Shown here: piece after piece, positions 7,877-64,000 of the stretch
Layout: the number at the start of each line of letters is the position of its first letter
Numbering within the stretch: position 1 is the stretch's first letter
Source of the DNA: Candidatus Angelobacter sp.
GTDB taxonomy: Bacteria > Acidobacteriota > Terriglobia > Terriglobales > Acidobacteriaceae
Direction: 5' to 3'
Length of the DNA stretch: 64,000 nucleotides
NCBI GenBank assembly: GCA_036495645.1
Contig: DASXMN010000011.1
Location: forward strand, 62,940-126,939
Translations under genes and position numbers: made by a program
The notes under the pieces: model-generated
Seen by the model: only the letters and a program-made list of their open reading frames with translations
Told to the model about the DNA's origin: nothing
Database searches by the model: none

Positions 7877-7958
7877 GAAAATCTTTCTGTCTGAGATGCC
7901 GCATCAGGGAATTCTCTCGATGACTCGCAATTCAACCCTGAAAAGTTTCGTCAGAACC

Positions 7959-8802: not shown

Positions 8803-8867
8803 GGTTCAAAGCTCCTTATGGATTTTCAAATCTTAATCTCTTGTTTAGCAATCCCATGTTCGCGCCC

Positions 8868-14334: not shown

Positions 14335-14342
14335 CTCACTTC

Positions 14343-23316: not shown

Positions 23317-23352
23317 GGTTTCTCCCACGAAGTCCTCGACGCAAAAGGGTGT

Positions 23353-33784: not shown

Positions 33785-33796
33785 AAAGATCCAGCG

Positions 33797-34054: not shown

Positions 34055-34078
34055 GAATTTCTTTCCTTGCAGGATTGA

Positions 34079-38000: not shown

Positions 38001-38162
38001 CTCAGGGCTGATTCCGGCTTGTTCCAATTCTTGGTCAGAGAAAAACGACGTTGCTTCAATTCCCTGGTACAGGTTCTCCCAGAACCGCTGGAGATTGGGG
38101 GCCTGGGGAAATCGTCCCGCCATGCCGATGATTGCTATTCCGTCAAGTGCGTCCCTGGTCAT
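34965..38162 (-). CDS. type I polyketide synthase module: KS-AT-carrier (no KR/DH/ER)
   Basis: 1065 aa. The KS has DGIAIIGMAGRFP and the active-site block TACSTSL. The AT has GYSIGE (nt 36201-36218) and HAFHS. The carrier domain is PCP-like (YVAPRNFTEQKIVEIWEELLGV...FLRLGGNSLLAIRV). The start ATG overlaps the NRPS2 stop (ATGA). Confidence 0.95.
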   Translation of the reverse strand: MTRDALDGIAIIGMAGRFPQAPNLQRFWENLYQGIEATSFFSDQELEQAGISPELLRHPNYVKARGVLQDADLFDAGFFGYSPREAELTDPQVRLFLECAWEALESAGWEPEKFLGMIGVYAGMSFTSYIWQLAGEEMEGDSVSAFRLLMGGAEKDHLATTVSYRLNLRGPSFNIQTACSTSLAAVHAAARAVMTYECDMALAGGATVSVPQRCGYMYESGGIASADGHCRSFDADASGSVSGDGVGVVLLKRLEDAVADGDTVYAVIKGSAVNNDGRRKVGFTAPAVEGQAEVIAMALAAAEVECASIGYIEAHGSATTMGDPIEIAALNQAYGQAALKSASIAVGSVKSSLGHLNAAAGVAGLIKTILSLQHGYIPPSLNFRKANPKIPFERGPFRVNHTLSPWPESNKPRRAGVSSFGIGGTNVHVILEEAPKTKPSEPARSWQLIMISARSRQALERATDQLAAHLLQHPEQNFADVAFTLQQGRKAFEHRRMVVSRDASAAITLLQARTPSQVFTAVAPSGRRPVAFLLPGLGDQYLDMGRGLYESEPEFARHVDHCSEFLKPLLGVDLRKTMYPDSRVRQQNEVRTEERMNFRNLVQRARDESSPALQEIHRTLWAQPALFIIEYALAKLWMSWGVVPESMMGYSIGEYVAACLAGVISLEDSLRMLAVRAQRIEALAPGAMLAIAASEEEIRPLLTPEISMAGINGKSLCVVAGTLEAIDALQQRLLREGELVCRRLLATHAFHSPLMAPVAEELTRIARSIRLSPPKIPYISNVTGKPITDSEATDPTYWARHLTQPVQFAAGLQQMCSPSAPVFLEIGPGQMLTSLAEQYLGGRGLADRVALASLPHASDAQPDRAFILSTLGNLWLAGIEPDWIGVHRNERRNRVPLPTYPFERQSYWHTPSRRRKEKREAEPAKANAMAAPFTHEIVASNQGTQPEGNGMVNSRSYLSAEYVAPRNFTEQKIVEIWEELLGVHPIGIHDEFLRLGGNSLLAIRVAAELREAFQIEFPLGALLKSGTVSEIALFVEDALLTMIENMDESALSGMETNDVRPSAGD

Positions 38163-53600: not shown

Positions 53601-55856
53601 GAACATGGCCGCCGTCAACCACAGCGTATTCACTCCCCGCCCCTGCACGTACTTCCTGATTTCTTCAGCACTCAAGACTCGCTGCTGCGCCAGTACGCTC
53701 CGTCCTCCGGTCAGCAACGCCCCCCACAGCTCCAGCGTGCATGCATCCCAACTCACCGAAGAATGCTGCAACAGCACCGTTTCTTCATCGAAGCGCACAT
53801 AGTCAGTTCCCAAAATGAATCCGGGAATACCGCGATGCGGAATCTCGCTCCCCTTCGGTTCCCCGGTCGATCCCGATGTGTAGATCACGTAGGCAAGGCA
53901 TTCAGCGTCCACTCCCGTCTCAGTTGGCTCCAGGTTCGTCTCCGGCAGATTCGTGAACACATCCTCACTTGCTAAATCGATAACCTGGATGCCTTCATGA
54001 ATTGCACTCGCCAAATCCGCCAACCCCGGCCAATCATTTCGTACCAGCAGCGCCACCGGAGTGCTATCCTCCAAAATGAATTGCAAGCGTTCCACGGGGT
54101 ACGATAGGTCCAGCGGCACATACGCTCCGCCTGCCTTCAACACTGCCACCATCCCCACCACCATCTCCAGTCCACGCTCCACGCCAATCGCCACTCGGGC
54201 ATCCGGCCTTACTCCAACGGTTCGCAGGTAATGCGCCAGCCGGTTGGCTCTGCGGTTCAGCTCGGCATACGTCAACTCCTGCCCTTGGTGCTCCACCGCC
54301 ACGGCGTTCCCCATTCTGGCCGCACATTCTTCGAACAACTCATGCACGCACTTCTGTCCGCCTTGCGTCTCCCCCGGGTTCCACTCCACTAAGAGCTGCC
54401 GTGTTTCATCCTGAGTCAACATCGCCAGGTCCCAAATTCGCTGCTCCGGTCCGTCCAGGGTGGCAGCCATTAAAAGCCCAAAGTGCTGAAGCATGCGCTG
54501 AATTGTGTCTGCCTCAAACAATCCAGTGTCGTAGTTAAACGCCAGTTTGGGAATTTCATCATCTACCGCAAGTAGCGCCAAATCGTACTTGGAGGTAGCG
54601 GTTTCCCACACCATCGGACGCATCTCCACACCTGGAAGCTCAAGCGATATGGCCTTGCCGTTCATGAACGTAAACGTCACCTGAAACAGGGGCGAGCTAC
54701 TCATCTGCCGCTCCGGCGACAATTCCTCGACCAGTTTCTCCAAGGGCAAATCCTGATGATCGAATGCATCCAGCGTCGCTTTTCTCACCCGCCCGAGCAC
54801 TTCCCTAAAAGTCGGTTCGCACCTTAAATCAGCCCGCATGATCAGAGTGTTCACGCAGAATCCGATCATGCCCTCTGTCCGCACGTGGCTGCGGTTCGCT
54901 ATTGGCGTTCCCACTCCGAAGTCCGCCTGTCCCGTATACCTAAGCAGCAGCACCTGGTAGATCGCCAGCACTGTCATAAACACGCTGGCGCCTTCCTGTT
55001 GGCTGAACCACTTCATTTTTTCCCAATAGTCCCTGGCAATCGTTACCGCCTCCGTGCTGCCACGATGTTGGGGGATGGCAGGCCGCGGCTTGTCCATGGG
55101 CAACTCTAAAAGTTCCGGCATTCCAGTCAACTGTTTCGTCCAGTACTCCATCTGATGGGCGAAAACTTCTCCCTGCAGCCATTGGGTCTGCCACAACGTG
55201 TAGTCCGCATATTGGAGCGGCATCTCTTTGAGCGGCGATTCCTGCCCTTGTACATAGGCCCCGTAGAGCAATGCCATTTCCTGGTGCAACACTCCCATTG
55301 ACCACTCATCCACTACGATGTGATGAATGCTCAATGCCAGAACATGTTCCCGCTCTCCTAACCGGATCATCACTCCACGCAACAAAGGTGCGCTTTCCAG
55401 ATCGAACGGCTTTGCTGCTTCCTGCCTCACGATCTCCTGCGCCTGTTTTTTTCTGTCCTCGGCGCCCTCATGCTTGCTCAAATCCAGCAGTTGCAGCCGG
55501 AACTCTATTGATTCCTCGACCTTCTGCACTGGCTCGCCGTCCTCTATCACAAAACTCGTCCGCAAAGCTCCGTGCCGCCGAATGATCTCTGCCAAACTCC
55601 GCTCCAGAGCCCGCACGTTCAAATCCCCGTGCAGCTCACACGCCAGCACGACGTTGTAGAAGTCACTGCTCGGTTGCAGACGGTCCAGAAACCAAAGGCG
55701 CTTTTGCGCCCAGGAAAGCGGTAGCCGCTCCCGAGTTTCTGCTGAAGCAATTTCCCAGTCTTGGGGGCCAAGACCCTCTTTCTGCAGCAAAAGATGCAGC
55801 AGTTCCCGCTCTTCTTCCGCCTGATCTTTTTTCAACACAGTTCTTTCAGGAGACAT
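47691..55856 (-). CDS. non-ribosomal peptide synthetase NRPS1: C-A-T-C-A-T-C-T (last module has no A domain)
   Basis: 2721 aa. C1 is HHIVVDEWS, A1 has YTSGSTGEPKG and T1 is FFELGGHSL. C2 is MHHIVSDGWS, A2 has YTSGSTGRPRG and T2 is FFAIGGHSL. C3 is FHHIVSDGWS. About 29 aa after C3 comes T3 (FFDLGGYSLL), and the protein then ends. Confidence 0.95.
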   Translation of the reverse strand: MSPERTVLKKDQAEEERELLHLLLQKEGLGPQDWEIASAETRERLPLSWAQKRLWFLDRLQPSSDFYNVVLACELHGDLNVRALERSLAEIIRRHGALRTSFVIEDGEPVQKVEESIEFRLQLLDLSKHEGAEDRKKQAQEIVRQEAAKPFDLESAPLLRGVMIRLGEREHVLALSIHHIVVDEWSMGVLHQEMALLYGAYVQGQESPLKEMPLQYADYTLWQTQWLQGEVFAHQMEYWTKQLTGMPELLELPMDKPRPAIPQHRGSTEAVTIARDYWEKMKWFSQQEGASVFMTVLAIYQVLLLRYTGQADFGVGTPIANRSHVRTEGMIGFCVNTLIMRADLRCEPTFREVLGRVRKATLDAFDHQDLPLEKLVEELSPERQMSSSPLFQVTFTFMNGKAISLELPGVEMRPMVWETATSKYDLALLAVDDEIPKLAFNYDTGLFEADTIQRMLQHFGLLMAATLDGPEQRIWDLAMLTQDETRQLLVEWNPGETQGGQKCVHELFEECAARMGNAVAVEHQGQELTYAELNRRANRLAHYLRTVGVRPDARVAIGVERGLEMVVGMVAVLKAGGAYVPLDLSYPVERLQFILEDSTPVALLVRNDWPGLADLASAIHEGIQVIDLASEDVFTNLPETNLEPTETGVDAECLAYVIYTSGSTGEPKGSEIPHRGIPGFILGTDYVRFDEETVLLQHSSVSWDACTLELWGALLTGGRSVLAQQRVLSAEEIRKYVQGRGVNTLWLTAAMFNSIVESDVGCLQGVKYLLTGGETASVMHIRRAMEELPGMRVVNGYGPSECTVFSSCYVVPAEMPETLISLPIGKPIGDRRMYVLDAAMNVAPIGVVGEAYVAGASVARGYLRRPDLTAERFVPDLYSEEGGGRLYRTGDLVRWRGDGTIEFVGRNDLQVKVRGFRIELGEIEARLLEYEGVREAVVIAQEDVAGSKRLVAYYTEGASDLQQSDGRRKLGAEELRSHLAQRLPEYMVPAAYVRLEALPLTPNGKLDRKRLPAPDGNAYSANGYEEPQGEIETTLVAIWRELLGAAKVGRNDNFFELGGHSLLAITMIGRLREMLGLEVEIGEVFEHSRLSELASKISGGRQTQLPPITKADRKRPLPLSYAQQRLWFLAQMKAVSEVYHIPFGVRLVGKLDRHALGLALDRLVQRHEALRTTFVVVDGEALQRIAAVEDSHFLLRDHDLRDQDLCQQVDSESGLRQLLEEEAHASFDLEAGPLIRGLLIREGEDQYALLITMHHIVSDGWSVAVLLNELSVLYRAFVRGEADPLPELAVQYPDYAVWQRHWMQGEVLRQQAEYWQTTLAGAPALLELPADHVRPADQEYAGAWHEMMLDEELTTGLKELSKQHGATLYMTLLAGWAVLLGRLSGQQDVLIGTPVANRGQEELEGLIGFFVNTLVLRTDLSHRPRVGELLERVKSRSLGAQQHQDIPFEQVVEIVQPERSLAHSPLFQVMFAWQNAPRGALDLVGLKTMGLEMATHRVARFDLTVSLWEMDERIAGGVEYSTALYERARIERYMGYWRRILEGMVAGSGQIVDCLDLLPKSERYQILYEWNRTDAPYPPKCMHELFEDQVGRSAEAPAVEFEGQKLTYGELNRRANQLGHYLRKLGVGPEVRVGLCMERSLEMVIGLLGILKAGGAYVALDPHYPVERLKFMVEDSSIAVLVTQSGLLEQLLGSPKVICIDKELVEIAHESGKDVGLPLYPENLVYVIYTSGSTGRPRGVAVQHGSANALLQWAREVFSAEELGGVLASTSICFDLSVFEIFAPLSWGGKTIVVRDALNLAEMEQESGVKLLNTVPSAMAELLRIKGVPDSIQTVNLAGEALPPNTVEQLYEELKVKRVFNLYGPSEDTTYSTYACLEKGETNERVPIGKPISNTQAYVLDREYQPVPIGMTGELFLGGQGVARGYLNQPDLTAEKFIPNPFSERGGERIYRTGDQVKWGRKGNLEFIGRLDQQVKVRGYRIELGEIEAVLQAHEGVRACAVIVREDQPAEKRVVAYVIKNGAVRAEAFREFLKERLPEYMVPSAFVEMEQLPLTPNGKVDRKALPAPKREWDDRRGYTGPRNGEEEILCGLFAEVLNRDRVGVHDDFFAIGGHSLLATRLISRIRATLGIDVALRSVFESPTIAKLASQLQDDGGARKAQISLRRHPKAEHAPLSYSQRRLWFINELQGSSAEYNMPEALRLRGRLDVDALRRAVQTIVDRHESLRTHFAEERGEPVQIIAPDLTFEIPIKDLSRLSEAEQQRHVMESVNQEWREPFDLAHGPVLRLKLLKLAEENHILLQTFHHIVSDGWSLGIFMREFRELYEAYSQGRENPLPDLLLQFTDFALWQMQDANEGLDEDLRFWQEHLAEIPEELEIPKDRPRPPVQTYAADACGITLPQEKVAALKRCGRSTLYMTLLTAFAVQMHRYSGQDDIVVGSPIANRQDERLEGLIGFFANMLVMRVEVNPNASFGELLEEVRDLALETYRHQHIPFERLVEVLPLRRSLNRTPIFQVVFALQNASSGTQELKGLEVEELGTEAWTVRFDLEVHAIERNGQLDIVWIYNRDLFDRWRIEQMARYYERLLAAAMQDLKKPICDLEILSASEIQQLKIRGVTQTGKAERRARNPYVAPRTPLEQMVASVWQEALGVERAGLDDNFFDLGGYSLLVARVRFNLREKLQKDIALVDFFSYPTVRLLAEKLEHREESLTMEKTSRKGF
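47745..49340 (-). other. A-less C-T module at the C-terminus of NRPS1
   Basis: C3 is aa ~2173-2604 (nt 48045-49340). T3 is aa ~2631-2704 (nt 47745-47966), with its carrier Ser codon at 47853-47855. The C-to-T linker is only ~29 aa, so no A domain can be present. Confidence 0.85.
53080..54449. repeat. A-core cassette copy in NRPS1 module 1 (partner at 44868-46237)
   Basis: Evidence is the same as for the partner copy. The left edge of similarity is at CAATCTCTCCTAACTCAATTCGGAAACCGCG and the right edge is at AAATTCGCTGCTCCGG. Confidence 0.85.
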
Positions 55857-56378
55857 TTTTTAAAAAACTCTTAATTTTTTGATGGGGCTTAAATTCAGGA
55901 GCTCCCTGATTGGAAGATGGAATACCCTGGTCATTGATGGAGGCGGACCAAAAATGTGGAAGTCAGAGCCCCTGATTGATGACCTGCAAGCGGACTATCA
56001 CCACCCGTTTAACAACCTACTTATTAGTCTATTAGTTTAAAAGGTTTTTCGGGTTGATTGTTTACATAAAATCCAGCTCTCGATTGGAAAAATCGTGAGT
56101 GGCATCGCTACCGCCCCATCCTTCTCATCCGCATACTTGTTTATGCAAATGCCGATAGGGGTCTGGGATGAGGTTTATTAGACCAATATAGAAAATACTG
56201 ATGCATTCGTAGAATGCTGGGATAAAGCTCAAGAAAATATAAGCTGTTACACAAATCTTGGCTGGCACAAATGCGCAGTGATCCAATTCAGAAAAGGACG
56301 AAAATCCCTTTCAAACTTTTGCGGGGCATGCATAATTGGCATGCATCATTTCTGTATGGATTCTCTTTGAAATCTTTC

Positions 56379-57455
56379 TTAACCCAATTGCGGATTAATT
56401 AAGCTTTTAGACGCGGAACCTGCAACTACATTTTCCAAGGCCGCATTCGCTTCGCTCAAGCCAAAAAATTTCAGAGGAATCGCTGACCAGGCAGCGGAGC
56501 GAGAGGGATCTGTCATCATCCGCACGGATTTATAAAAGTGAGAAAAGTCAGCGCCCCAACAGCCACGCACGTCAAGGTGCTTTTTATTCAAATCCAAGTG
56601 CGGATTGAAAAGTACGTCGCCCGCATTCGTGTATTGACCAACAATGACCACACGTCCCGCATCGCGCGTGTACCGCATTGCATCAACTACAGCGGTGGGA
56701 TTGCCCGTGGCTTCAATCGTCACATCCGCTCCTCTTCCATCGGTAAGGTCGCGGATCCAGTCTAATCGTTCGGCTTCTGTACAGGTTGAGAAGTCCTTGG
56801 TTTTATGTGCGCCTACTTGCCTGGCCACCTGCAAGCGAGCTTCCGGGGCGCCCAGGCAAAAAACGCGATGTGCGCCACGCAGCAACGCACAAATAATGAT
56901 GGATATACCCACTGGACCACTCCCGAGTACCAGCACTATGTCTCCCAGTGAGATCTCCGCGCGCTCCACTGCGTGCAGGGCCGTGGGCAATGAACAACCA
57001 CCGGCCATGAATCTTTGCGGATCCACGCCATTCAGGCTCAAACAGCGCGTATTCGGCTTAAGATAAATCGATTGGGCCCATCCGCCCGCCAAGCCATCCT
57101 TGACTCCATATGTGACCCCATAAACTTTCCTCTTCGGACAGCGTGTACTTGCCTTTGCCACAGCGCAATACCAACACACACCGCATGTTCGATGGACATC
57201 AAGAAATGTGACTTCATCTCCTTCGCGAAATCGGCGGTCCTCAGAGTCAACTAAATTGCCACGTATTTTGCTCAGAAAGCCCACTGAGACGTGCCCGGGA
57301 ATGATTGGATAGGGCACATCGGCCAGGTGCCCCGCATGCAAGTGAATATCTGTGCCACAGACCTCGCTTAGGCGAACATCCAGGATCGCTGAGTTCATTT
57401 CCAGTTCGGGTTCTTCAAACTCGCACACCTGTATAGGGAGAAACGGTTTTTGCAT
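56379..57455 (-). CDS. zinc-dependent medium-chain alcohol dehydrogenase/reductase
   Basis: The start is set at ATG 57455 (MQKPFLPIQVCEFEEPELEM), giving 358 aa. It has the catalytic Zn region CGTDIHLHAG...PGHV, the structural Zn cluster CGVCWYCAVAKASTRC and the Rossmann motif VLGSGPVG. The 75 upstream codons of the track ORF are rejected. Confidence 0.8.
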   Translation of the reverse strand: MQKPFLPIQVCEFEEPELEMNSAILDVRLSEVCGTDIHLHAGHLADVPYPIIPGHVSVGFLSKIRGNLVDSEDRRFREGDEVTFLDVHRTCGVCWYCAVAKASTRCPKRKVYGVTYGVKDGLAGGWAQSIYLKPNTRCLSLNGVDPQRFMAGGCSLPTALHAVERAEISLGDIVLVLGSGPVGISIIICALLRGAHRVFCLGAPEARLQVARQVGAHKTKDFSTCTEAERLDWIRDLTDGRGADVTIEATGNPTAVVDAMRYTRDAGRVVIVGQYTNAGDVLFNPHLDLNKKHLDVRGCWGADFSHFYKSVRMMTDPSRSAAWSAIPLKFFGLSEANAALENVVAGSASKSLINPQLG

Positions 57456-57730
57456 GACCGCTGCTAAAATTTTTGGCAAGAGTTTACCTCGGCTTCCTGC
57501 GAATTTACCTGGAGTGTGGCTCCCAGGGACGGAAAAGACAAGATTAGCCCCGGGCCTCAAGCAGTAGAGGGAATCGGGATAAATACGTGAGATTCCGGCG
57601 TTCCAATGAATTTCCCGAATACCAGCTTTCGTAAACCATAACCCGGCAGCACCGCATTTCCAAACATAAAATAAGTTCACATTTGCGTCTACATTCCGCC
57701 TTGATGCCTGACAATAGCAGGAAGGACTTT

Positions 57731-58957
57731 ATGGGCACGGCAATCACACCAATCGCTTCTACCGCTACGATCGAGCATCCGCTACGCAATCCCCAGTATC
57801 GCCTTTGGCTGATCGGCGGGACGATATCATTTCTCGGCGACCAGTTCTATATGGTGGCGTTACCCTGGTTGATTCTGCAGCAGACGGGATCGGCTGTGGC
57901 CATGGGCGCGGTCCTGATGGCGGGATCCATTCCGCGCGCTCTTCTAATGCTCATGGGCGGGGTCCTGAGCGATCGCATGTCCGCGCGTAAGATCATGATG
58001 ACCACAGCCGCAACGCGTACCATCTGTGTGGCCGTAATCGGAGTTCTCATCTGGTTCGGCATTCTTCACATGTGGGAACTCTACGCGTTGGCGGTTATTT
58101 TTGGCTTGGCCGATGCATTTGCCGCTCCCGCATCAACAGCCTACTTGCCTTCTCTGTTGCAGCCTGAACAACTGGTGGCGGCCTCCTCGGTCGGCCAAAG
58201 CACGGCACAATTAACAAGCATCGTTGGCCCCGTTCCGGCAGGATTTGTAATCAAGGCCCTGGGTGTAGCATGGGCGTTCTTCGTGGACGCAGTCAGTTTC
58301 CTGTTCATCATCGGCGCACTCTGGAAGCTGCCTGACCCACCTAAATCTCAGGCTGCGACGAAAGCGGTATGGCCCGCGATTGCAGAGGGTATTGCCTACG
58401 TGGGAAGAGATGTGCCCCTGCGCTCTTTGATGCTGCTGGCCATGACCATGAACTTCTGCTTTACTGGGCCGGTTGCGATTGGTCTCACCTACCTGGCCAA
58501 GACCCGCTTTGGTTCACCTGCCATATTGGGGACTTTGATGTCGGCTGTTGCCGTGGGAAGTCTGTTGGGCGCGCTGCTGGCCGGCGTGTGGAAGATTCGC
58601 AGGCGCGGTGTCCTGATGCTTCTGGTGGCAGCGGCATTGGCTCCTTGCCTCGGATCCATTGGGCTCATAGGCAGTGTGTGGCCCCTTGCCGGGGTGCTAT
58701 TTACGATCGGCGTTTTGGCGGCCTTGATGAACGTCCACATCGGTGCCTGGGTAATGCAGCGGATTGATGCAGCGGTGCGGGGGCGAGTGGCAAGTGTGCT
58801 CATGCTTGCCACTTTCGGAATCATGCCCATCTCTTTCGCCGTTGCCGGATTCCTGATTGCATGGAACCTGAAGTTCACGTTTCTGATCGCTGGCCTGGCA
58901 ATGTTCCTGACTGCTGCCGGAGCGTCATTCCAGAAGCCGGTCCGAGAGATCGAATAG
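57731..58957 (+). CDS. MFS transporter (EntS/DHA3-like exporter)
   Basis: The start is set at ATG 57731, preceded by AGGAAGGA. The N-terminus NPQYRLWLIGGTISFLGDQFYMVALPWLILQ is characteristic of this family. It is hydrophobic with 12-TM-like periodicity and has the motif MGGVLSDRMSARK. Confidence 0.8.
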   Translation: MGTAITPIASTATIEHPLRNPQYRLWLIGGTISFLGDQFYMVALPWLILQQTGSAVAMGAVLMAGSIPRALLMLMGGVLSDRMSARKIMMTTAATRTICVAVIGVLIWFGILHMWELYALAVIFGLADAFAAPASTAYLPSLLQPEQLVAASSVGQSTAQLTSIVGPVPAGFVIKALGVAWAFFVDAVSFLFIIGALWKLPDPPKSQAATKAVWPAIAEGIAYVGRDVPLRSLMLLAMTMNFCFTGPVAIGLTYLAKTRFGSPAILGTLMSAVAVGSLLGALLAGVWKIRRRGVLMLLVAAALAPCLGSIGLIGSVWPLAGVLFTIGVLAALMNVHIGAWVMQRIDAAVRGRVASVLMLATFGIMPISFAVAGFLIAWNLKFTFLIAGLAMFLTAAGASFQKPVREIE

Positions 58958-59115: not shown

Positions 59116-59814
59116 TTAAGCGGATTTTGCGCTCACTTCCATGCTCTCGGCGTTCTTTTTGTTGTCGAACACCTGGCTGAGTTCGGAAAAGAAAGCGATC
59201 CACAAGCGCCACATCTCTTCAGCACTACTTACAACCCGTTGATAGTCATCGGTTGAGAGCTCTGGTTCCAGGGCGTTACTCGCCTTATCAACGTGGTTTG
59301 GTTCCTGAAGAACGTGTATGTCCACCCAAGGAAGGTTCTTCATGCCGCTCACTTGCCGAACCGCCGCGCCGATTCCGGAAACCATGGCCAGATCGGCTAC
59401 CTCGGTCCCATATACAAAGCCGAGCGCGCTGGCGTGCTCAGCGGATGCGGATTCGTATCCCTTAATAAGTTTGCGAGTGGATTCAAGTGGAGGAGCTTCG
59501 GCGACCTCGTGTTGAGAAAAGCCTGCGGCAGCCATCGTTTCCAGGTAGATGCGTTCATGGGCCATGGCCGGATTGCCTTCTCCAAGTTCCTGGGACAAAA
59601 TGGCACAAATCGCGGTTTTCGTCTCGAGCCAGGGGACGACTGAAATACTTCTTGAAAGAAAATTGGGGAAATAGTGTAAGGGATGCCACCACTGTCCCAG
59701 AAAAATTGCGACGTCACTGCGCGTAAGCAGTCCAGATTTGATCTCACCGAAAAAACGATGGTGAATCAGGTCTTTTCTCAGAGCATTATTTTTCAGTGAA
59801 TCAAGAACAGTCAT
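59116..59814 (-). CDS. heme-oxygenase-like fold iron-dependent enzyme (TenA/PqqC/HDO-type, DUF3865-like)
   Basis: 232 aa and predicted all-helical. The blocks SQELGEGNPAMAHERIY, VYGTEVADL and QEPNHVDKA give E/H ligand spacing like heme-oxygenase-like diiron oxidases. The family call is tentative. Confidence 0.45.
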   Translation of the reverse strand: MTVLDSLKNNALRKDLIHHRFFGEIKSGLLTRSDVAIFLGQWWHPLHYFPNFLSRSISVVPWLETKTAICAILSQELGEGNPAMAHERIYLETMAAAGFSQHEVAEAPPLESTRKLIKGYESASAEHASALGFVYGTEVADLAMVSGIGAAVRQVSGMKNLPWVDIHVLQEPNHVDKASNALEPELSTDDYQRVVSSAEEMWRLWIAFFSELSQVFDNKKNAESMEVSAKSA

Positions 59815-59896
59815 GGTAAAGCTCCTTTTATGAATGAAGTTCTTCGCTTCTTACATTTTATTTGTGAATGGATTTATGATCGCGCAAACGCACCTT

Positions 59897-59932
59897 ATCA
59901 TCGCTCTCCACTGCATCATTGCTCTCCACTGA
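59897..59932. repeat. tandem 18-nt direct repeat in divergent promoter region
   Basis: ATCATCGCTCTCCACTGC (59897-59914) is followed directly by ATCATTGCTCTCCACTGA (59915-59932), with 16 of 18 positions identical. Confidence 0.8.
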
Positions 59933-60001
59933 GTTCCTTGTCAACACTAGTTTATTTTCAGAGGGGTTGTGATCGTGCGAGCTACTCGGGATCGAACACT
60001 T

Positions 60002-60026
60002 CACACGTTCCAAAATGGAACGTGTG
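60002..60026. promoter_or_regulatory. perfect 10-bp inverted repeat, candidate operator
   Basis: The site reads CACACGTTCC-AAAAT-GGAACGTGTG. It lies in the 422-bp spacer between the divergently transcribed heme-oxygenase-like and CmlA-like genes. Confidence 0.4.
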
Positions 60027-60236
60027 GATTTTGCTGTCAATTGCAGAGTGTCTAAGAATGCATCCAAGTGCATGCCCATATCAACGCTGAAGCCATGTTA
60101 TTGTGTGAAAAGATGATGAGCGACGCACGGCTGAAGCTGACTTCCTGAAGCTTAGCGCACGCATGTCCGGTCAATGTGCGCCGATATAGGACGAAGAAGT
60201 CCGAGTCCGCGGATTTTTTGATGAAGGAGTTGAACG

Positions 60237-61877
60237 ATGCCCGATAACGAGCAGTTGTACCTCAGACCGAACATACAGGTTGAGCCTTTGATCGATGGCT
60301 GGTACGCCTGGCCTCACCTTATTCCTCCCGCAACTGCGGCAAGAAACATAACCGAGCGTCATATGAAAATCATGGATTCCTACATCAATATGCCGCTGGT
60401 CCATGCGAATGCGGTCAAAAACCCTAAAATGCTGGGCGGACCGTTCATCGATTATGGAGGGAAACGGGTCGATGAGATTCGTGCCTTGCGGAACCATATT
60501 AAGCGGGAGCGTGCGCACCTGATTGAATTATCCGCTGCACTCGTAGAACTGGACGTCGCATTGAGGGGAAGCGCGAAGGGGTACAGCCTGCTTCCTTTAT
60601 ACGAGAAAATTCCAGCCATCCTGCGAGGTTATGTAGAGCTCGTTTACGACCTGAACAATCATCCTTCTTTCCGCCTGATCGAACCATTGCTGTACAGAAG
60701 CCGCTATTATGACCGCTCACAGCAGAGCGTGAGACTTTCGAAGATATCAAATGACGATCGGCCATTTGTGCTGAGTACGCCCAGGCTGGAAAGCGACGAC
60801 GCGCTTCATCTCCATATTCCATTCGATAGTCCGGTGATCGACGATCTGTTCCGGCTGAAGTCATCTCACCGTCCATGGTGCGAGATCAAGGAAATGCTTC
60901 AGGTACCGGCTTCCCATGATGAGCTGCTGCGCTCCTTCCTTACGCCGGAGCCGTCGCCGCACTATTCGCCTTATACCGGTCCCGGGGTGCGCTGGAGATA
61001 TTTTGGGCACGCCTGCATCCTGATAGAGTCGCAGGGCGCCAGCATGGTATTTGACCCGGTCCTCAGCTATACCTACGAGAACGGAATTTCCCGCTACACT
61101 TATCTCGATTTGCCCGACGAGATCGATTACGTCTTAATAACCCATAATCATCAGGACCACATCCTGTTTGAAACCTTGCTGCAAATCCGGCACAAGATCA
61201 AGAATATTGTCGTGCCGCGCAATAATCCTGGCCATCTCCAGGACCCTTCTCTGAAACTCATTCTCGAGAATTGCGGCTTCCGAAACGTGATTGAGTTGAA
61301 CGAACTTGAGGAAATCCGCGTTGGAAACCTGTCCATCACTGGACTTCCTTTTCTTGGCGAGCATGCAGACCTGGACATTCATAGCAAAATGTCATGGTTG
61401 GTCAAGCTGGGGTTGCACACCCTGCTGTTTGCAGCAGATTCCTGCAACATCGACCCCGCACTGTATGAACATCTGCACAGGGAATTCGGAGATGTAGATG
61501 CACTTTTCCTCGGAATGGAATGCGATGGCGCCCCGCTGAGCTGGCTCTATGGACCGCTTCTTTCCAAGAAGCTTGAGCGCGGCATGGATGAATCGAGGCG
61601 GCTTGCCGGCTCCAATTATGAACAAGCAATGAACATCGTTAATTCCCTTAACTGCAGGGAAGCATACGTTTATGCCATGGGACAGGAGCCGTGGCTGAAT
61701 TACATCATGAGCGTAAAATACACAGAGCAATCACGCCCGATTATGGAATCGACCAAACTAATTAATGCTTGTCACGAACGCGGAATCGTCGCGGAAAGGC
61801 TCTACGGAGAAAAAGAAATTCTTCTGGAACCGAAGTCTGCTCCACATGTAGCGCAACCGGTGGCCATAAGAGCGTGA
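60237..61877 (+). CDS. CmlA-like non-heme diiron beta-hydroxylase (N-terminal domain + metallo-beta-lactamase fold)
   Basis: 546 aa. The C-terminal half has the MBL signature ITHNHQDH plus downstream acidic/His ligand candidates (GEHADLD, FAADSC, GMECDG). The ~250-aa N-terminal domain and overall size match CmlA-type enzymes, which hydroxylate carrier-bound amino acids. Confidence 0.55.
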   Translation: MPDNEQLYLRPNIQVEPLIDGWYAWPHLIPPATAARNITERHMKIMDSYINMPLVHANAVKNPKMLGGPFIDYGGKRVDEIRALRNHIKRERAHLIELSAALVELDVALRGSAKGYSLLPLYEKIPAILRGYVELVYDLNNHPSFRLIEPLLYRSRYYDRSQQSVRLSKISNDDRPFVLSTPRLESDDALHLHIPFDSPVIDDLFRLKSSHRPWCEIKEMLQVPASHDELLRSFLTPEPSPHYSPYTGPGVRWRYFGHACILIESQGASMVFDPVLSYTYENGISRYTYLDLPDEIDYVLITHNHQDHILFETLLQIRHKIKNIVVPRNNPGHLQDPSLKLILENCGFRNVIELNELEEIRVGNLSITGLPFLGEHADLDIHSKMSWLVKLGLHTLLFAADSCNIDPALYEHLHREFGDVDALFLGMECDGAPLSWLYGPLLSKKLERGMDESRRLAGSNYEQAMNIVNSLNCREAYVYAMGQEPWLNYIMSVKYTEQSRPIMESTKLINACHERGIVAERLYGEKEILLEPKSAPHVAQPVAIRA

Positions 61878-62236
61878 CCCCAATGTGAACCTTGGCGCTA
61901 CGGCAGTCGACAAGATGGAAATGATGGCAATTCCCATGTTTGCCGATGATTCCTTTCACTCTCCTTATTTCGATCGGTCGTATACGCAGCTTTCGCCCAC
62001 AACGACACTCGTAAAACTGCGAGGGATTAAGGTATTTGAGTTAATAAACCGATTGCGCGTTCCAAAATAGAACAGCTCTGCTTTTCCAGCTCTCAATTAC
62101 GATTGAATCAGACTAATGAATCTTGTTTAATTGGTTTACTAGCCGCTGGCCCCTTCTCACCTTGACCGGACTGGCGTCTTAATCACCACGATCTTCGACC
62201 GTGTGCAGCGGTAGTTTTTTCTGGCACCGGCGCTCG

Positions 62237-64000
62237 ATGAGGTTCTGTTCTGTGGACGCACGCGTTAAGCCCGTTGCCTTGATAAGCATGCCCTGCCTTT
62301 CTGCGCGCTTTCCTTCCTTTCAGCTTGCGCTGCTTAAACCCACTCTCGAAGAGGCAGGCATTCCAGCACAGCCCTTTTCCATGTTTATGTACCTGGGCAA
62401 CCAGATTGGCTGGCGCATCAGTGAAACCATTGCTGACGTATGGCCTTCGCTGGTCGGCGAGTGGATCTGGTCCAAGGCCGCATTTGGCGATGAAATCAAC
62501 ACGGACGACGACGAAGAATACTTTGCCGCGCATGAAAATGTGTTTGCCGCCGTTTGTCATTATGGCAAATGTACTCTGGATGACCTGCGTCGCGTTCGCT
62601 ATGAGTCTGCTCCTCAATTCATTGATTTTTGTGTGAATAGCACAGACTGGAACCGCTTCGGGTTGATCGGCTTCACCGTAGTGTTCCAGCAGCTTATTGC
62701 AAGCCTGGCCCTGGCCCGCGCTTTGAAGCAAAAGTATCCGCATATTCCAATCGTTCTGGGCGGAGCCAGCCTGGAAGACGATATCGCAGACGAAGTGATG
62801 AAAGGCTGCCCGAAGGTTGACTATGTGCATTGTGGCGACGCTGAAATCTCTTTTCCTAAAATGGTGCACAGGCTTTATGCCGGTCAGAGCATGGAAGGCG
62901 TTCCCGGCATCATGTGGCGTAATCGCGAAGGCGAGGTGCGCTATGCCGGGCGTGCGCCCAATTTTCTGAATATGAATGACACACCTGTACCCGATTTTGA
63001 CGAATATTTTTACGCTCGCAAGGCCAGCGGCTATGAGGCATCCCCCGGCGCACGTGAACCGCTGCTCCCCTTTGAAGCCGCGCGTGGTTGCTGGTGGGGA
63101 GAAAAGAACCATTGCACTTTCTGCGGCCTGAACCGTTCAGGGATGGAATTTCGCGCCAAGGATGCAGACAAGGTGATTGAGCAGTTGGATGTGCTTTCCC
63201 GTCGCTACGGCCAGCTTCAATTCAATGCCATAGATAACATCATGGCGCCCGAATACACGGAAAAGCTTTTCGGTAAACTCGCGGCCGCCAACAGTGACAT
63301 TAAGGTCCACTATGAGATTAGGCCAAATTTCTCCCGCCAGCAGCTCTCGCGGCTCAGACGTGGGGGATTGTTCTCCGTGCAGCCCGGCGTTGAGAGTCTC
63401 TCCACTAACATTCTCAAGATTATGCGCAAGCTTTCCACCGGCATGCGCAATGTGGAACTTATTAAGTGGTGCACGTACTACGGAATCAATAATCTCTACA
63501 ACATTCTATGCCGTTTCCCAGGTGAGACCGTTGAGGACTACGCAAGCCAGTGCGAGGTAATCGCCAGAATTCCACATTTCCAACCGCCTTATGCAATCGT
63601 AAGGGCGCGGGCAGATCGCGGATCGCCCATGTACACAGAGTCGGCATCGCAATCCATTTCAGATCTGGTCCCGGCCAGGTGCTACAACTACCTGCTGCCT
63701 CGAGGCAAATTCAATTTGTATCGCATCTCCTACTACTTTGAGCACAAGATGGCCAACACCGTGGATGATTCGGTTTATGACGAAATTTTCCGTCGCGTAG
63801 AAGCTTGGCAGGAGCAGTGGAAAAATGCCAGGCGTCCTTACCTGCGCTATCAGAAGGCATGGTCCTCCATCCGCGTTTTAGATGGAAGAGGTGAGAACCT
63901 GCGCACTTTTGTCATCGCAGACGAGCCGGCAGCGCTCTATGAGTACTGCGCTGAAGCCCGGACACCGCGTGACATCGCTGCGAAATTCGGCGCTGAGCCG
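62237..64000 (+). CDS. B12-binding-domain radical SAM enzyme (class B, RiPP-maturase/C-methyltransferase-like), 3' end beyond window
   Basis: It is not in the ORF track because there is no stop in the window. My translation from ATG 62237 reads MRFCSVDARVKPVALISMPCLSARFPSFQLALLKPTLEEAGIP...IVLGGASLEDD...PFEAARGCWWGEKNHCTFCGLN...SVQPGVESLS... It has the radical SAM cluster motif CxxxxxxxCxxC and a B12-like N-terminal domain, and stays open to nt 64000. The minus-strand ORF 62183-63112 is its antisense shadow. Confidence 0.75.
   Translation, partial: MRFCSVDARVKPVALISMPCLSARFPSFQLALLKPTLEEAGIPAQPFSMFMYLGNQIGWRISETIADVWPSLVGEWIWSKAAFGDEINTDDDEEYFAAHENVFAAVCHYGKCTLDDLRRVRYESAPQFIDFCVNSTDWNRFGLIGFTVVFQQLIASLALARALKQKYPHIPIVLGGASLEDDIADEVMKGCPKVDYVHCGDAEISFPKMVHRLYAGQSMEGVPGIMWRNREGEVRYAGRAPNFLNMNDTPVPDFDEYFYARKASGYEASPGAREPLLPFEAARGCWWGEKNHCTFCGLNRSGMEFRAKDADKVIEQLDVLSRRYGQLQFNAIDNIMAPEYTEKLFGKLAAANSDIKVHYEIRPNFSRQQLSRLRRGGLFSVQPGVESLSTNILKIMRKLSTGMRNVELIKWCTYYGINNLYNILCRFPGETVEDYASQCEVIARIPHFQPPYAIVRARADRGSPMYTESASQSISDLVPARCYNYLLPRGKFNLYRISYYFEHKMANTVDDSVYDEIFRRVEAWQEQWKNARRPYLRYQKAWSSIRVLDGRGENLRTFVIADEPAALYEYCAEARTPRDIAAKFGAEP

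What the first reader, a model, noticed from the sequence alone, without database searches (positions are those of the whole stretch)
59116..64000. Tailoring island: heme-oxygenase-like iron enzyme, CmlA-like diiron beta-hydroxylase and a B12-radical SAM enzyme next to the assembly line
Three oxidative or radical tailoring enzymes are clustered 3-8 kb upstream of NRPS1. CmlA-type enzymes (N-terminal domain plus MBL fold with HxHxDH, here ITHNHQDH) hydroxylate carrier-tethered amino acids at C-beta. Heme-oxygenase-like diiron enzymes (the SznF, BesC and UndA class) perform unusual N-oxygenations, desaturations or C-C cleavages on amino acids. The radical SAM protein carries GCWWGEKNHCTFCGLN after a B12-like domain. 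I associate that signature with the RiPP-maturase/C-methyltransferase class B family, for example Val to tert-Leu type methylations. This combination next to an NRPS with A-less and dead-A modules suggests pre-assembled, heavily modified building blocks. Alternatively the radical SAM gene begins a separate RiPP locus that lies mostly outside the window.
Basis: partly seen in the sequence, partly recalled or inferred. Interest (0 to 1): 0.7.

Follow-up and report, generated by a model that had tools for sequence, protein, structure and literature searches.

The report
Two NRPS diiron oxygenases; separate RiPP operon
The three enzyme genes are real, but only the two iron oxygenases belong to the neighbouring peptide assembly line, while the radical SAM gene opens a separate, apparently undescribed operon that modifies a ribosomal protein made of tandem repeats.

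Summary
All three family calls hold. The 232-aa protein is a heme-oxygenase-like diiron enzyme (PF14518, 82 bits, six metal ligands invariant). The 546-aa protein is a CmlA/FrsH-type diiron beta-hydroxylase (CmlA_N 308 bits, seven ligands in register with CmlA). The truncated gene is a TIGR03975 B12-type radical SAM enzyme (510 bits).

The window comes from a Candidatus Angelobacter-like soil acidobacterium. Comparative loci split the "island" in two. The two oxygenases, with the adjacent Zn-ADH and MFS genes, are recurrent accessories of this NRPS-PKS cluster family. The CmlA-like gene most often sits beside Val-type adenylation modules, and the window has four.

The radical SAM gene is different. 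It has its own conserved upstream leader. It starts an operon found elsewhere without the NRPS: rSAM, a 974-aa PRTase-AMMECR1 fusion, a tandem-repeat precursor-like protein (5 x ...PVARPIVEVV...) and a second rSAM. None of 40 related metagenome loci with enough upstream sequence has a CmlA-like neighbour, and orthologous NRPS clusters lack the rSAM.

Substrates remain inferred.

The parts
56379..57455 (-). Zn-dependent medium-chain alcohol dehydrogenase (358 aa as called on contig L001; the longest ORF reaches 57680). It lies directly upstream of NRPS1 on the same strand.
   Evidence: ADH_N and ADH_zinc_N hit. The best PDB match is 1vj0 at 165 bits, followed by L-threonine 3-dehydrogenases. 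It is kept next to the NRPS1 orthologue, MFS and HO-like genes in L012-L014 and L093.
57683..58957 (+). MFS exporter of the EntS/MFS_3 type
   Evidence: MFS_1 and MFS_3 hit. TIGR00900 scores 199 bits, below its cut-off. It co-occurs with the HO-like gene in L002-L005, L011-L014 and L093.
59116..59814 (-). Heme-oxygenase-like diiron oxidase/oxygenase (HDO), 232 aa. Predicted ligands are E79, H86, E138, H167, E171 and H174.
   Evidence: PF14518 scores 82 bits. The six ligands are invariant in 30 homologues of 61-95% identity. The AF2 model has pLDDT 90. The best Foldseek match is CADD at TM 0.78-0.84, and PolF, UndA and BesC also match. The gene lies next to NRPS genes in every context examined.
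60000..60028 (.). 13-bp-stem palindrome (core CGTTCCAAAATGGAACG) in the divergent HO-like/CmlA-like intergenic region. It may be an operator.
   Evidence: One search found it. The core is conserved in L011 and L012 but not in L013 or L014. It has not been tested.
60237..61877 (+). CmlA/FrsH/HynC-type non-heme diiron beta-hydroxylase, 546 aa. Ligands are H303, H305, D307, H308, E375, D401 and E428.
   Evidence: CmlA_N scores 308 bits. PDB 8a90 scores 465 bits and CmlA 4jo0 scores 438 bits over the full length. Ligand positions equal my recalled CmlA numbering minus 2. 50 of 80 genome loci with a homologue have an NRPS C-A match within 10 kb.
61878..62084 (.). Junction segment between the CmlA-like block and the rSAM operon. 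It has no homology to the regions upstream of other rSAM operons.
   Evidence: DNA alignment A2. A related strain in run X6 diverges right after 61864, whereas X5 spans the junction.
62085..62236 (+). Conserved upstream leader or promoter region of the rSAM operon
   Evidence: It aligns with the sequence upstream of rSAM1 in L159, L096, L106, L095 and partly L008, whatever gene lies further upstream. It has no Rfam match.
62237..64000 (+). rSAM1, a TIGR03975 B12-type radical SAM enzyme (636-648 aa in full, cut by the window end). It is the first gene of a RiPP-like operon that continues for about 8 kb beyond the window.
   Evidence: TIGR03975 scores 510 bits. The C268-x7-C276-x2-C279 triad is invariant in 10 family members, including the second rSAM. 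The continuation is seen on L001 and L007, which match the window at 9621 of 9621 and 2454 of 2455 overlapping bases.
47691..55856 (-). NRPS1 (C-A-T-C-A-T-C/E). Its first module carries the Val-type code DALWLGGVFK and is the nearest candidate carrier-bound substrate for the CmlA-like enzyme. Further Val-type modules lie in NRPS2 (A5 motif near 45262), NRPS3 (28941) and NRPS4 (22350).
   Evidence: Domain motifs and Stachelhaus codes were extracted by script. DALWIGGTFK is the commonest Val code according to PMC12283262.
11937..16772 (.). The other end of the same cluster: stand-alone thioesterase (11937-12710, +), unknown 402-aa protein (13198-14406, -) and MacB/FtsX permease (14343-16772, -). 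In related clusters these genes lie directly beside the CmlA-like gene.
   Evidence: Pfam results are. L015, L020, L026, L027 and L039 show NRPS, MacB (85-90% identical), u402 (79-82%) and CmlA-like, with a thioesterase seen only in L015. L004 and L005 show the same order.

Best explanation
The 4.9-kb stretch holds parts of two unrelated biosynthetic units that are neighbours only in this lineage.

Unit 1 covers about 56.4-61.9 kb and belongs with the NRPS-PKS genes at 16.9-55.9 kb. It comprises a Zn-ADH, an MFS exporter, a heme-oxygenase-like diiron enzyme and a CmlA-type diiron beta-hydroxylase, all accessory genes of the assembly line. Shown: family membership, intact metal sites, and recurrent linkage to NRPS genes. 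Inferred: the CmlA-like enzyme docks on a carrier (T) domain and hydroxylates C-beta of a tethered branched-chain residue. This is most likely the Val-type residue loaded by the DALWLGG(V/T)FK modules, as FrsH and HynC do for Leu. Also inferred, more weakly: the HO-like enzyme uses a diiron/O2 intermediate to oxidise a free aliphatic amino acid into a non-proteinogenic building block. The adjacent Zn-ADH may process that product further, possibly towards a cyclic imino acid for the Pro-like module DVQFNAHAAK.

Unit 2 starts at about 62.09 kb and continues roughly 8 kb past the window. It is an autonomous RiPP-like operon with its own conserved leader. The genes are rSAM1, a 974-aa PRTase-AMMECR1-helical fusion, a precursor-like protein of five 31-residue repeats (...LPTPVARPIVEVVAEVQ...), rSAM2 and an LCM-family methyltransferase. 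Inferred: the two TIGR03975 enzymes methylate unactivated carbons of Val, Ile or Pro in each repeat through methylcobalamin and a 5'-deoxyadenosyl radical, as PoyB and PoyC do in proteusins. They do not act on the NRPS product.
For: Family membership and active sites are documented.

CmlA-like linkage to NRPS:
- 50 of 80 genome loci carry an NRPS C-A match within 10 kb.
- 36 of the 53 loci with any A domain carry a Val-type code, often in the first A domain of the NRPS gene right after the hydroxylase.
- The window has four such modules.
- Orthologous clusters L012-L014 (92-94% identical) keep the order NRPS1, ADH, MFS, HO-like, CmlA-like.
- L015, L020, L026, L027 and L039 place the CmlA-like gene after MacB and u402, the genes found at the far end of the window's cluster. 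L004 and L005 give the order HO, MFS, ADH', MacB, unknown, CmlA. The window's strand pattern is that order with one inversion.

HO-like linkage to NRPS: the gene lies next to NRPS genes in all contexts examined, namely L012-L014, L091/L092, L093, L094, L170 and L171/L172. It is often the first gene of the NRPS operon, and a CmlA-like gene is not required.

rSAM autonomy:
- The order rSAM1, AMMECR1 fusion, repeat protein, rSAM2 recurs in L007, L008, L010, L159 and others.
- 35 of 45 loci with at least 1.5 kb downstream of rSAM1 have the fusion gene next.
- None of the 75 metagenome loci has a CmlA-like hit, and 40 of 70 tabulated have at least 2 kb upstream of rSAM1.
- The conserved leader starts at about 62085.
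- L013 and L014 have a thioesterase after the CmlA-like gene, and L012 has efflux genes, rather than the rSAM.
- A strain in run X6 diverges at 61864.

Precedents: FrsH and HynC hydroxylate T-domain-bound Leu and Tyr (PMC7794379, PMC8252469).
Against: No substrate has been shown for any enzyme here.

CmlA-like enzyme: the Val-type assignment is correlative. The window's NRPS4 ends with a His-type module (DSACIAEVWK), and the relict L004 retains exactly A(His)-T next to MacB, the unknown gene and the CmlA-like gene. Beta-hydroxy-His therefore remains possible. 30 of 80 CmlA-like loci show no NRPS in their flanks, many of which are short. L011 keeps MFS, HO, CmlA and a thioesterase without an NRPS within 10 kb.

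HO-like enzyme: the ADH/imino-acid idea rests on analogy recalled from memory, and no A-domain code is common to all HO-like contexts.

rSAM operon: it touches this cluster family more often than random placement predicts. It is present in the window and in strain X5. In L148 the order is NRPS, MacB (91%), u402 (82%), a 1.2-kb gap, then rSAM1. In L028 the rSAM operon and a CmlA-like gene are divergent neighbours. No protease, RRE domain or dedicated exporter was identified in the operon, so cleavage into peptides is unproven.
Confidence: 0.7

Rival explanations
1. All three enzymes, including the B12-radical SAM enzyme, tailor the NRPS-PKS product or its amino-acid building blocks, for example by C-methylating Val to a tert-Leu-type residue.
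For: The genes are physically adjacent in at least two strains, the source run X1 and X5 from another study. The rSAM operon also abuts members of this cluster family in L148 and L028. The assembly line has four Val-type modules.
Against: The rSAM gene travels with its own ribosomal repeat substrate and partners in dozens of loci that lack an NRPS. It has its own conserved leader. The orthologous NRPS clusters L012-L014 lack it. None of the 75 metagenome rSAM loci has a CmlA-like gene, 40 of them with at least 2 kb of upstream sequence. TIGR03975 is a peptide-maturase family.
Confidence: 0.06
2. The CmlA-like enzyme makes beta-hydroxy-histidine on the terminal A(His)-T module of NRPS4 rather than a beta-hydroxy branched-chain residue.
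For: The last A domain of NRPS4 has the code DSACIAEVWK. L004 has DSALIAEVWK, a His code reported to accept the beta-OH modification (PMC12283262). In L004 and L005 the only surviving A-T is this one, and it sits two genes from the CmlA-like gene.
Against: None of the 80 CmlA-like genome loci has a His-like code in its flanks, whereas 36 of the 53 with any A domain have a Val-type code. L004's A(His)-T is a deletion remnant of a window-like cluster, so its proximity is not independent evidence. In L015, L020, L026 and L039 the module before MacB carries other codes.
Confidence: 0.2
3. The HO-like and CmlA-like genes, with MFS and a thioesterase, form a small stand-alone cassette that only happens to lie next to megasynthase genes. 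Its product would be made without the large NRPS.
For: L011 (also held as L002 and L003; CmlA-like 96% identical) has MFS, HO, CmlA and a thioesterase with no NRPS within 10 kb. L004 and L005 keep the accessory genes with only one truncated A-T.
Against: L004's ADH'-'A-T is a truncated fusion. The ADH domain is cut at position 71 of 129 of the ADH_zinc_N profile, and the A domain begins at profile position 80. This marks cluster decay, not a designed minimal system. A CmlA-type enzyme needs a carrier-bound substrate according to published work on CmlA, FrsH and HynC. The HO-like gene is operonic with giant NRPS genes in L094, L171 and L172, with a 10-bp gap.
Confidence: 0.08
4. The repeat protein of the rSAM operon is not a cleaved RiPP precursor. 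It would be a mature, hyper-modified, intrinsically disordered protein, perhaps a TonB-like Pro/Glu-rich spacer or an envelope component, that the rSAM enzymes decorate.
For: No protease, RRE or dedicated exporter was recognised in the operon. Distant relatives carry RPEIRPEI-type Pro/Glu-rich repeats.
Against: The protein is small, with a conserved N-terminal leader-like segment (...RPQxAPEV...). Copy number varies from 2 to more than 15 near-identical units, as in multi-core precursors. It has no signal peptide or membrane anchor by eye. TIGR03975 enzymes are known as peptide maturases.
Confidence: 0.25

Closest known systems
CmlA (chloramphenicol), FrsH (FR900359) and HynC (hypeptin): non-heme diiron monooxygenases acting on carrier-bound amino acids
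   Same: The architecture is the same two domains, CmlA_N plus an MBL fold. Full-length similarity is high: 8a90 at 465 bits and CmlA 4jo0 at 438 bits. All seven diiron ligands are in register. The gene lies beside NRPS genes.
   Different: The host is an acidobacterium. The substrate is unknown, with co-occurrence pointing to Val-type modules rather than p-aminoPhe, Tyr or Leu. The gene's position within the cluster family is shuffled, sitting at either end, and in some genomes no NRPS lies within 10 kb.
Heme-oxygenase-like diiron oxidases: CADD (pABA synthase), PolF (Ile to azetidine), BesC and UndA
   Same: The fold is the same helical bundle, with TM 0.78-0.84 to CADD and about 0.7 to PolF, UndA and BesC. 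The 3-His/3-carboxylate site is present. Like BesC and PolF, the gene is associated with amino-acid-derived natural-product pathways.
   Different: Identity to any solved member is only 9-18% among the Foldseek matches listed. TIGR04305 (CADD) scores 44.8 against a cut-off of 200, and the BesC equivalog scores 22.8 against 500. CADD's sacrificial Tyr27 aligns with an invariant Phe22. The clade is narrow: only 46 representatives at 50% identity reach E<=1e-30 among 1.84 billion proteins. It is found next to acidobacterial NRPS genes and no member has been characterised.
Proteusin C-methyltransferases PoyB and PoyC (polytheonamide) and other TIGR03975 B12-radical SAM peptide maturases
   Same: The HMM family is the same, at 510 and 612 bits for the two paralogues. 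Several paralogues occur per operon. The substrate is rich in Val, Ile and Pro.
   Different: The precursor is not of the NHLP or Nif11 type (no NCBIfam hit). It is a tandem array of 2 to more than 15 near-identical units. The constant partner is a 974-aa PRTase-AMMECR1 fusion rather than an epimerase, dehydratase or N-methyltransferase. The Cys motif is Cx7Cx2C.
4-methylproline route (Leu hydroxylase GriE, Zn-dehydrogenase GriF/NosE, reductase). This is recalled from memory as a lead only.
   Same: An oxygenase gene sits next to a Zn-dependent alcohol dehydrogenase gene, and the assembly line has a Pro-like A domain (DVQFNAHAAK).
   Different: The oxygenase here is an HDO, not an Fe/2OG enzyme. 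No dedicated reductase is present. The ADH is absent from several HO-like contexts (L091, L094, L170). No sequence comparison with GriF or NosE was possible.

Membership tests
CmlA-type non-heme diiron beta-hydroxylases (NHDM) | N-terminal CmlA_N domain fused to an MBL-fold domain | tested here: met
   PF18456 scores 308 bits over profile positions 1-232 of 232, and Lactamase_B_2 also hits. The alignment to 8a90 and 4jo0 is full length.
CmlA-type non-heme diiron beta-hydroxylases (NHDM) | HxHxDH motif plus the extra carboxylate ligands (CmlA E377, D403 and E430; numbering from memory, with E377 confirmed through HynC E375 in PMC8252469) | tested here: met
   H303, H305, D307, H308, E375, D401 and E428 are all at CmlA numbering minus 2. 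The same motifs are identical in 8a90.
CmlA-type non-heme diiron beta-hydroxylases (NHDM) | Genomic association with an NRPS that supplies a T-domain-tethered substrate | tested here: met
   The gene lies 4.4 kb from NRPS1 in the window. 50 of 80 homologous loci have an NRPS within 10 kb.
CmlA-type non-heme diiron beta-hydroxylases (NHDM) | Beta-hydroxylation activity on an aminoacyl-S-carrier protein | not testable with these tools
   This needs an enzyme assay.
Heme-oxygenase-like diiron oxidases/oxygenases (HDO) | PF14518 match above the gathering score and a helical heme-oxygenase-like fold | tested here: met
   82.4 bits against a cut-off of 28.9. The AF2 model has pLDDT 90 and is all helical. 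Foldseek finds CADD, PolF, UndA and BesC.
Heme-oxygenase-like diiron oxidases/oxygenases (HDO) | Three His and three carboxylate ligands on the core helices (E...H, E, HxxxE/DxxH) | tested here: met
   E79, H86, E138, H167, E171 and H174 have the same spacing as CADD E81, H88, E142, H174, D178 and H181. They are invariant in 30 homologues.
CADD-type self-sacrificing pABA synthase | TIGR04305 above cut-off and a sacrificial Tyr27 (residue role recalled from memory) | tested here: not met
   44.8 bits against a cut-off of 200. Tyr27 aligns with Phe22, which is invariant.
TenA thiaminase / PqqC | PF03070 above the gathering score; no metal site expected | tested here: not met
   20.7 bits against a cut-off of 22. 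A full diiron ligand set is present, and no pqq or thiamin genes lie nearby. The JGI auto-name 'PQQ biosynthesis protein C' is not supported.
BesC (4-chloro-allylglycine synthase) equivalog | NF042919 above cut-off | tested here: not met
   22.8 bits against a cut-off of 500.
TIGR03975 RiPP-maturation B12-radical SAM C-methyltransferases | HMM above the trusted cut-off | tested here: met
   510 bits for the truncated gene against a cut-off of 282. The second copy in the operon scores 612 bits.
TIGR03975 RiPP-maturation B12-radical SAM C-methyltransferases | Cys triad for the [4Fe-4S] cluster | tested here: met
   C268-x7-C276-x2-C279 is invariant in 10 members. The spacing is not the canonical Cx3Cx2C.
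TIGR03975 RiPP-maturation B12-radical SAM C-methyltransferases | N-terminal cobalamin-binding domain | tested here: inconclusive
   PF02310 scores 23.9 bits, below its cut-off of 32.1. The only PDB relative is the B12-dependent TokK, at E 1e-5.
TIGR03975 RiPP-maturation B12-radical SAM C-methyltransferases | A co-encoded ribosomal peptide substrate | tested here: met
   A tandem-repeat ORF lies in the same operon (L007 5595-6221, with 5.1 copies of a 93-nt unit). It is conserved in many loci. Actual modification was not tested.
Proteusins (polytheonamide-type RiPPs) | Precursor with an NHLP or Nif11-type leader | tested here: not met
   NCBIfam and Pfam give no NHLP or Nif11 hit for the repeat protein.

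The most novel reading that the evidence does not exclude
The radical SAM gene at the window's edge may mark a new RiPP class that is widespread in Acidobacteriota. Its precursors would be tandem arrays of short Pro/Val/Ile/Glu units (PVARPIVEVV or RPIPEVAP/RPEIRPEI), hyper-C-methylated by two or three TIGR03975 enzymes. A PRTase-AMMECR1 fusion would be the obligatory partner. That would give the enigmatic AMMECR1 domain its first biochemical context in peptide maturation. Separately, the HO-like enzyme would be the founding member of an NRPS-dedicated HDO clade with new chemistry.
Probability: 0.45. Interest if true: 0.8.

Novelty: new variant of a known kind. Interest (0 to 1): 0.6.

Why it matters
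Cluster boundaries: the work sets the right-hand end of an Angelobacter NRPS-PKS cluster at about nt 62,080. This prevents an rSAM methylation step from being written into a structure prediction for the hybrid product.

CmlA-like enzyme: it adds an acidobacterial member to a small characterised family (CmlA, the teicoplanin enzyme, FrsH, HynC). It also gives a testable substrate hypothesis, a beta-hydroxy-Val-type residue.

HO-like enzyme: it identifies a narrow, uncharacterised HDO clade that is consistently attached to NRPS genes. HDOs have repeatedly yielded new chemistry.

rSAM operon: it exposes a conserved rSAM, PRTase-AMMECR1 and repeat-protein operon. In the searched library, no paper contained both "AMMECR1" and "ribosomally synthesized", and no listed paper linking RiPPs, radical SAM and C-methyltransferases mentioned AMMECR1. 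It is a candidate new RiPP family and a possible route to AMMECR1 function.

Tried and rejected
1. Beta-hydroxy-His as the main CmlA-like substrate. The His code sits at the NRPS4 terminus and in L004, but none of the 80 homologous loci carries a His-like code. It is kept only as a rival.
2. A riboswitch or other known RNA in the conserved rSAM leader. Rfam gave only a 21-bit snoRNA hit against a gathering score of 90, which is noise.
3. An RRE (PqqD-like) domain in the C-terminal tails of rSAM1 and rSAM2. It looked plausible by eye, but Pfam found nothing even at E<=10.
4. A precursor peptide inside the window. The 61-aa ORF at 61885-62070 and the 73-aa ORF at 59858-60079 have no family hit. 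The 73-aa ORF has only one weak tblastn match, 47% in L011. No repeat motif or MbtH motif occurs anywhere in the window.
5. A CADD-type pABA synthase, which would have fitted CmlA's classical p-aminoPhe substrate. It is rejected on HMM score and on Tyr27 being Phe.
6. A terminator between the CmlA-like and rSAM genes. Only weak consensus hits were found, no more than in shuffled sequence, so this is uninformative.
7. RNA evidence for co-transcription. Only DNA soil metagenomes hold the sequence.
8. The C-terminal third of the AMMECR1 fusion. The only hit is a sub-threshold GlcNAc 2-epimerase-like (alpha/alpha toroid) match, so it is left unassigned.
9. Literature. No listed or retrieved paper connects AMMECR1 with RiPPs, and no retrieved paper connects CmlA with beta-hydroxyhistidine or TIGR03975 with repeat precursors.

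Full report
**Observation**

- 59116-59814 (-) encodes 232 aa.
- 60237-61877 (+) encodes 546 aa.
- A plus-strand gene starts at 62237 or 62252 and runs off the window at 64000.

Pfam and NCBIfam confirm each family call.
- The 232-aa protein matches Haem_oxygenas_2 at 82.4 bits (cut-off 28.9). TENA_THI-4 scores 20.7 bits, below its cut-off of 22.
- The 546-aa protein matches CmlA_N at 308 bits, plus MBL-fold domains.
- The truncated gene matches TIGR03975, the RiPP maturation radical SAM C-methyltransferase family, at 510 bits (cut-off 282).

The quoted motifs are at nt 61143 (HNHQDH) and nt 63086-63133 (GCWWGEKNHCTFCGLN). Between these genes and NRPS1 (start 55856) lie a Zn-dependent alcohol dehydrogenase (56379-57455, -) and an EntS-like MFS transporter (57683-58957, +).

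**Source and wider context**

Close homologues are annotated Candidatus Angelobacter or Terriglobia, which are soil Acidobacteriota. The genus is known for very large NRPS and NRPS-PKS clusters that are often accompanied by MacB pumps (PMC9723581).

On the minus strand the window carries the following genes:
- NRPS1 (47691-55856) and NRPS2 (38159-47686);
- a KS-AT-ACP PKS (34965-38162);
- a 3-hydroxyacyl-CoA dehydrogenase, an acyl-CoA dehydrogenase and an FkbH-like protein (31540-35023);
- NRPS3 (23353-31323) and NRPS4 (16897-23328);
- a MacB/FtsX permease (14343-16772) and an unknown 402-aa protein (13198-14406).

A stand-alone thioesterase follows on the plus strand (11937-12710).

**The CmlA-like enzyme**

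It aligns end to end with PDB 8a90, deposited as a non-heme diiron monooxygenase (465 bits), and with CmlA 4jo0 (438 bits). H303, H305, D307, H308, E375, D401 and E428 sit at CmlA numbering minus 2. The diiron site is therefore complete. The E377 equivalent is the residue mutated in HynC (PMC8252469).

A scan of one genome per species returned 80 loci.
- 50 of them have an NRPS C-A match within 10 kb.
- I extracted specificity codes with a GrsA-anchored script. Its reference segment reproduces the known Phe code.
- 36 of the 53 loci with any A domain carry a Val-type code, DA[LFW][WF].G[GV][TVC][CF]K. This is often the first A domain of the NRPS gene that begins right after the hydroxylase gene.
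- DALWIGGTFK is the commonest Val signature (PMC12283262).

The window has four such modules, each the first module of an NRPS gene.
- NRPS1 and NRPS2: DALWLGGVFK.
- NRPS3: DAFFWGGTFK.
- NRPS4: DALWLGGTFK.

NRPS1 begins C-A(Val-type)-T, the same layout as FrsA and FrsD, on which FrsH hydroxylates leucyl-S-T (PMC7794379). I therefore take beta-hydroxylation of a carrier-bound Val-type residue as the most likely function.

A His alternative exists. The last A domain of NRPS4 reads DSACIAEVWK, and DSALIAEVWK is a His code that accepts beta-OH. However, none of the 80 loci has such a code.

**How the cluster family is arranged**

- L012-L014 (92-94% identical CmlA-like protein) show NRPS1, ADH, MFS, HO-like and CmlA-like exactly as in the window. 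What follows is a thioesterase and aromatic-catabolism genes (L013, L014) or RND efflux genes (L012), not a radical SAM gene.
- L015, L020, L026, L027 and L039 show NRPS, MacB (85-90% identical), the unknown protein (79-82%) and the CmlA-like gene, with a thioesterase seen only in L015.
- L004 and L005 show HO-like(+), MFS(-), a 756-aa protein, MacB(+), unknown(+) and CmlA-like(+), followed by housekeeping genes.
- Pfam shows that the 756-aa protein is a truncated ADH joined to an A domain that begins at profile position 80, followed by T. It is a deletion scar that removed all the megasynthases.
- Inverting the block from HO-like to the unknown protein in that order reproduces the window's strand pattern.

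The two oxygenases thus mark the two ends of one cluster family. In the window an inversion has brought them together.

**The heme-oxygenase-like enzyme**

Six ligands (E79, H86, E138, H167, E171, H174) have the CADD spacing and are invariant in 30 homologues of 61-95% identity. An AlphaFold model (pLDDT 90) matches CADD best (TM 0.78-0.84). It then matches TenA-fold proteins and the diiron enzymes PolF, UndA and BesC.

It is not a member of any characterised subfamily.
- TIGR04305 scores 44.8 bits against a cut-off of 200.
- The BesC equivalog scores 22.8 bits against a cut-off of 500.
- CADD's Tyr27 aligns with an invariant Phe.

The clade is narrow. Among 1.84 billion representatives, only 46 reach E<=1e-30.

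In every context examined the gene borders NRPS genes.
- L091 and L092: MbtH, HO-like, NRPS, PKS, 3HCDH.
- L093: NRPS and ADH on one strand, then MFS and HO-like on the other.
- L094, L171 and L172: HO-like sits 10 bp upstream of an NRPS of about 6000 aa.
- L170: HO-like is divergent from NRPS, 3HCDH and ACAD.

A CmlA-like gene is not required nearby. The substrate cannot be read from the sequence.
- HDO precedents act on free amino acids.
- A Pro-like code (DVQF...) occurs in the window, L091 and L170.
- A Zn-ADH is adjacent in the window lineage and in L093.

From these I propose, with low confidence, oxidation of an aliphatic amino acid followed by ADH-dependent processing into a non-proteinogenic building block.

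**The radical SAM gene**

Two public contigs extend the window. L001 is identical over 9621 bases, and L007 matches at 2454 of 2455 bases. Beyond nt 64000 the operon continues with these genes:
- a 974-aa protein made of an orotate-PRTase-like domain, AMMECR1 and a helical C-terminal domain;
- a 208-aa protein;
- a second TIGR03975 enzyme (612 bits);
- an LCM-family SAM methyltransferase;
- a 207-aa protein.

The 208-aa protein has a leader-like N-terminus. This is followed by 5.1 copies of a 93-nt unit that encodes ETREALPTPVARPIVEVVAEVQNPAFAQGER.

Homologous operons carry 2 to more than 15 such units (L008, L010, L104, L114, L116, L159). More distant ones (62-65% rSAM identity) place a repeat gene of the RPIPEVAP or RPEIRPEI type directly upstream of the rSAM gene.

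Several counts show that the operon is autonomous.
- 35 of 45 loci with at least 1.5 kb downstream have the AMMECR1 fusion next to rSAM1.
- None of the 75 metagenome loci has a CmlA-like hit, and 40 of 70 tabulated have at least 2 kb upstream.
- The roughly 150-200 nt upstream of rSAM1 are conserved among operons whatever lies further upstream. In the window this homology starts near 62085.
- The Cx7Cx2C triad is invariant.

The gene therefore belongs to an autonomous RiPP-like unit.

**Residual linkage**

The juxtaposition is not unique to one assembly.
- A contig from a different study (X5, about 94% identical) spans 61809-63846.
- Another strain (X6) diverges at 61864.
- L148 reads NRPS, MacB (91%), unknown protein (82%), a 1.2-kb gap, then rSAM1 (79%).
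- L028 has the rSAM operon divergent from a CmlA-like gene, with no NRPS in 10 kb.

A single ancestral order, unknown protein then CmlA-like then rSAM operon, would explain the window, X5 and L148. L028 remains unexplained. I treat this as lineage-level synteny within cluster-rich genome regions. A functional tie in a sub-lineage is not excluded.

**Comparison with known systems and verdict**

- The CmlA-like gene is a new member of a known, small family.
- The HO-like gene is an uncharacterised clade of a known superfamily.
- The rSAM operon uses a known enzyme family with a new kind of precursor and a new partner. In the searched library, no paper contained both "AMMECR1" and "ribosomally synthesized", and no listed RiPP/radical SAM paper mentioned AMMECR1.

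Its main interpretation holds for two of the three genes, and its stated alternative holds for the third.

Noticed in passing
L007 5595-6221 (about 3.1 kb beyond the window end; equals window coordinate + 61545 offset): A 208-aa precursor-like protein with 5.1 tandem copies of a 93-nt unit (…LPTPVARPIVEVVAEVQ…). Homologues have 2 to more than 15 units. Distant operons have RPIPEVAP or RPEIRPEI repeat genes upstream of the rSAM gene instead.
   Followed up: yes
L007 2659-5583: A 974-aa fusion of an orotate-PRTase-like domain, one or two AMMECR1 domains and a helical (possibly alpha/alpha-toroid) C-terminal domain. It is the constant neighbour of rSAM1, in 35 of 45 loci. Its role is unknown.
   Followed up: partly
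L007 10920-12321 (minus strand): An ATP-grasp RiPP maturase (TIGR04187 at 151 bits, below its cut-off) followed by a 52-aa ORF. This may be a separate graspetide-type locus just beyond the rSAM operon.
   Followed up: no
L004 3863-6133 and L005 (same): A 756-aa chimera of a truncated Zn-ADH and a truncated A(His)-T (code DSALIAEVWK). It appears to be a deletion scar that removed all megasynthases from a window-like cluster while keeping the HO-like, MFS, MacB, unknown and CmlA-like genes.
   Followed up: partly
window 13198-59814 compared with L004 and L015: The window's gene order equals the order HO, MFS, ADH, NRPS..., MacB, unknown, CmlA with the block from HO to unknown inverted. This explains why cluster genes (thioesterase, unknown, MacB) sit 45 kb from the CmlA-like gene.
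   Followed up: partly
window 60000-60028: A 13-bp-stem palindrome (TTCACACGTTCCA AAA TGGAACGTGTGGA) lies between the divergent HO-like and CmlA-like genes. Its core is conserved in L011 and L012 only. It may be a regulator binding site.
   Followed up: partly
window 55857-56378: A 522-bp gap with no ORF in any frame lies between the ADH gene and the NRPS1 start. This is unusually long for an operon junction.
   Followed up: no
window 16897-23328 (NRPS4): The first A domain is interrupted between motifs A8 and A10 by a methyltransferase domain of about 500 aa (Methyltransf_12). The protein ends in A(His-type, DSACIAEVWK)-T with no fused TE or R domain.
   Followed up: partly
L012 1-5500: The NRPS1 orthologue is split into three ORFs of 505, 397 and 1083 aa. 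This could be pseudogenisation or long-read frameshift errors.
   Followed up: no
L028 396-7747: The rSAM operon and a CmlA-like gene are divergent neighbours, with no NRPS within 10 kb. A type III PKS-like gene and an aminotransferase-like gene lie downstream. This second, differently oriented juxtaposition is unexplained.
   Followed up: partly
window 2072-9578: To the left of the cluster lie two CoA-transferase subunits, a PaaA/PaaC-like protein, an aldehyde dehydrogenase, an enoyl-CoA hydratase and a TetR regulator. This looks like an acyl-CoA or aromatic catabolic set, probably outside the cluster.
   Followed up: no
window 62183-63112 (minus strand): A 309-aa ORF lies antisense to the rSAM gene. 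It is taken as an artefact of the coding strand's composition; this was not tested.
   Followed up: no
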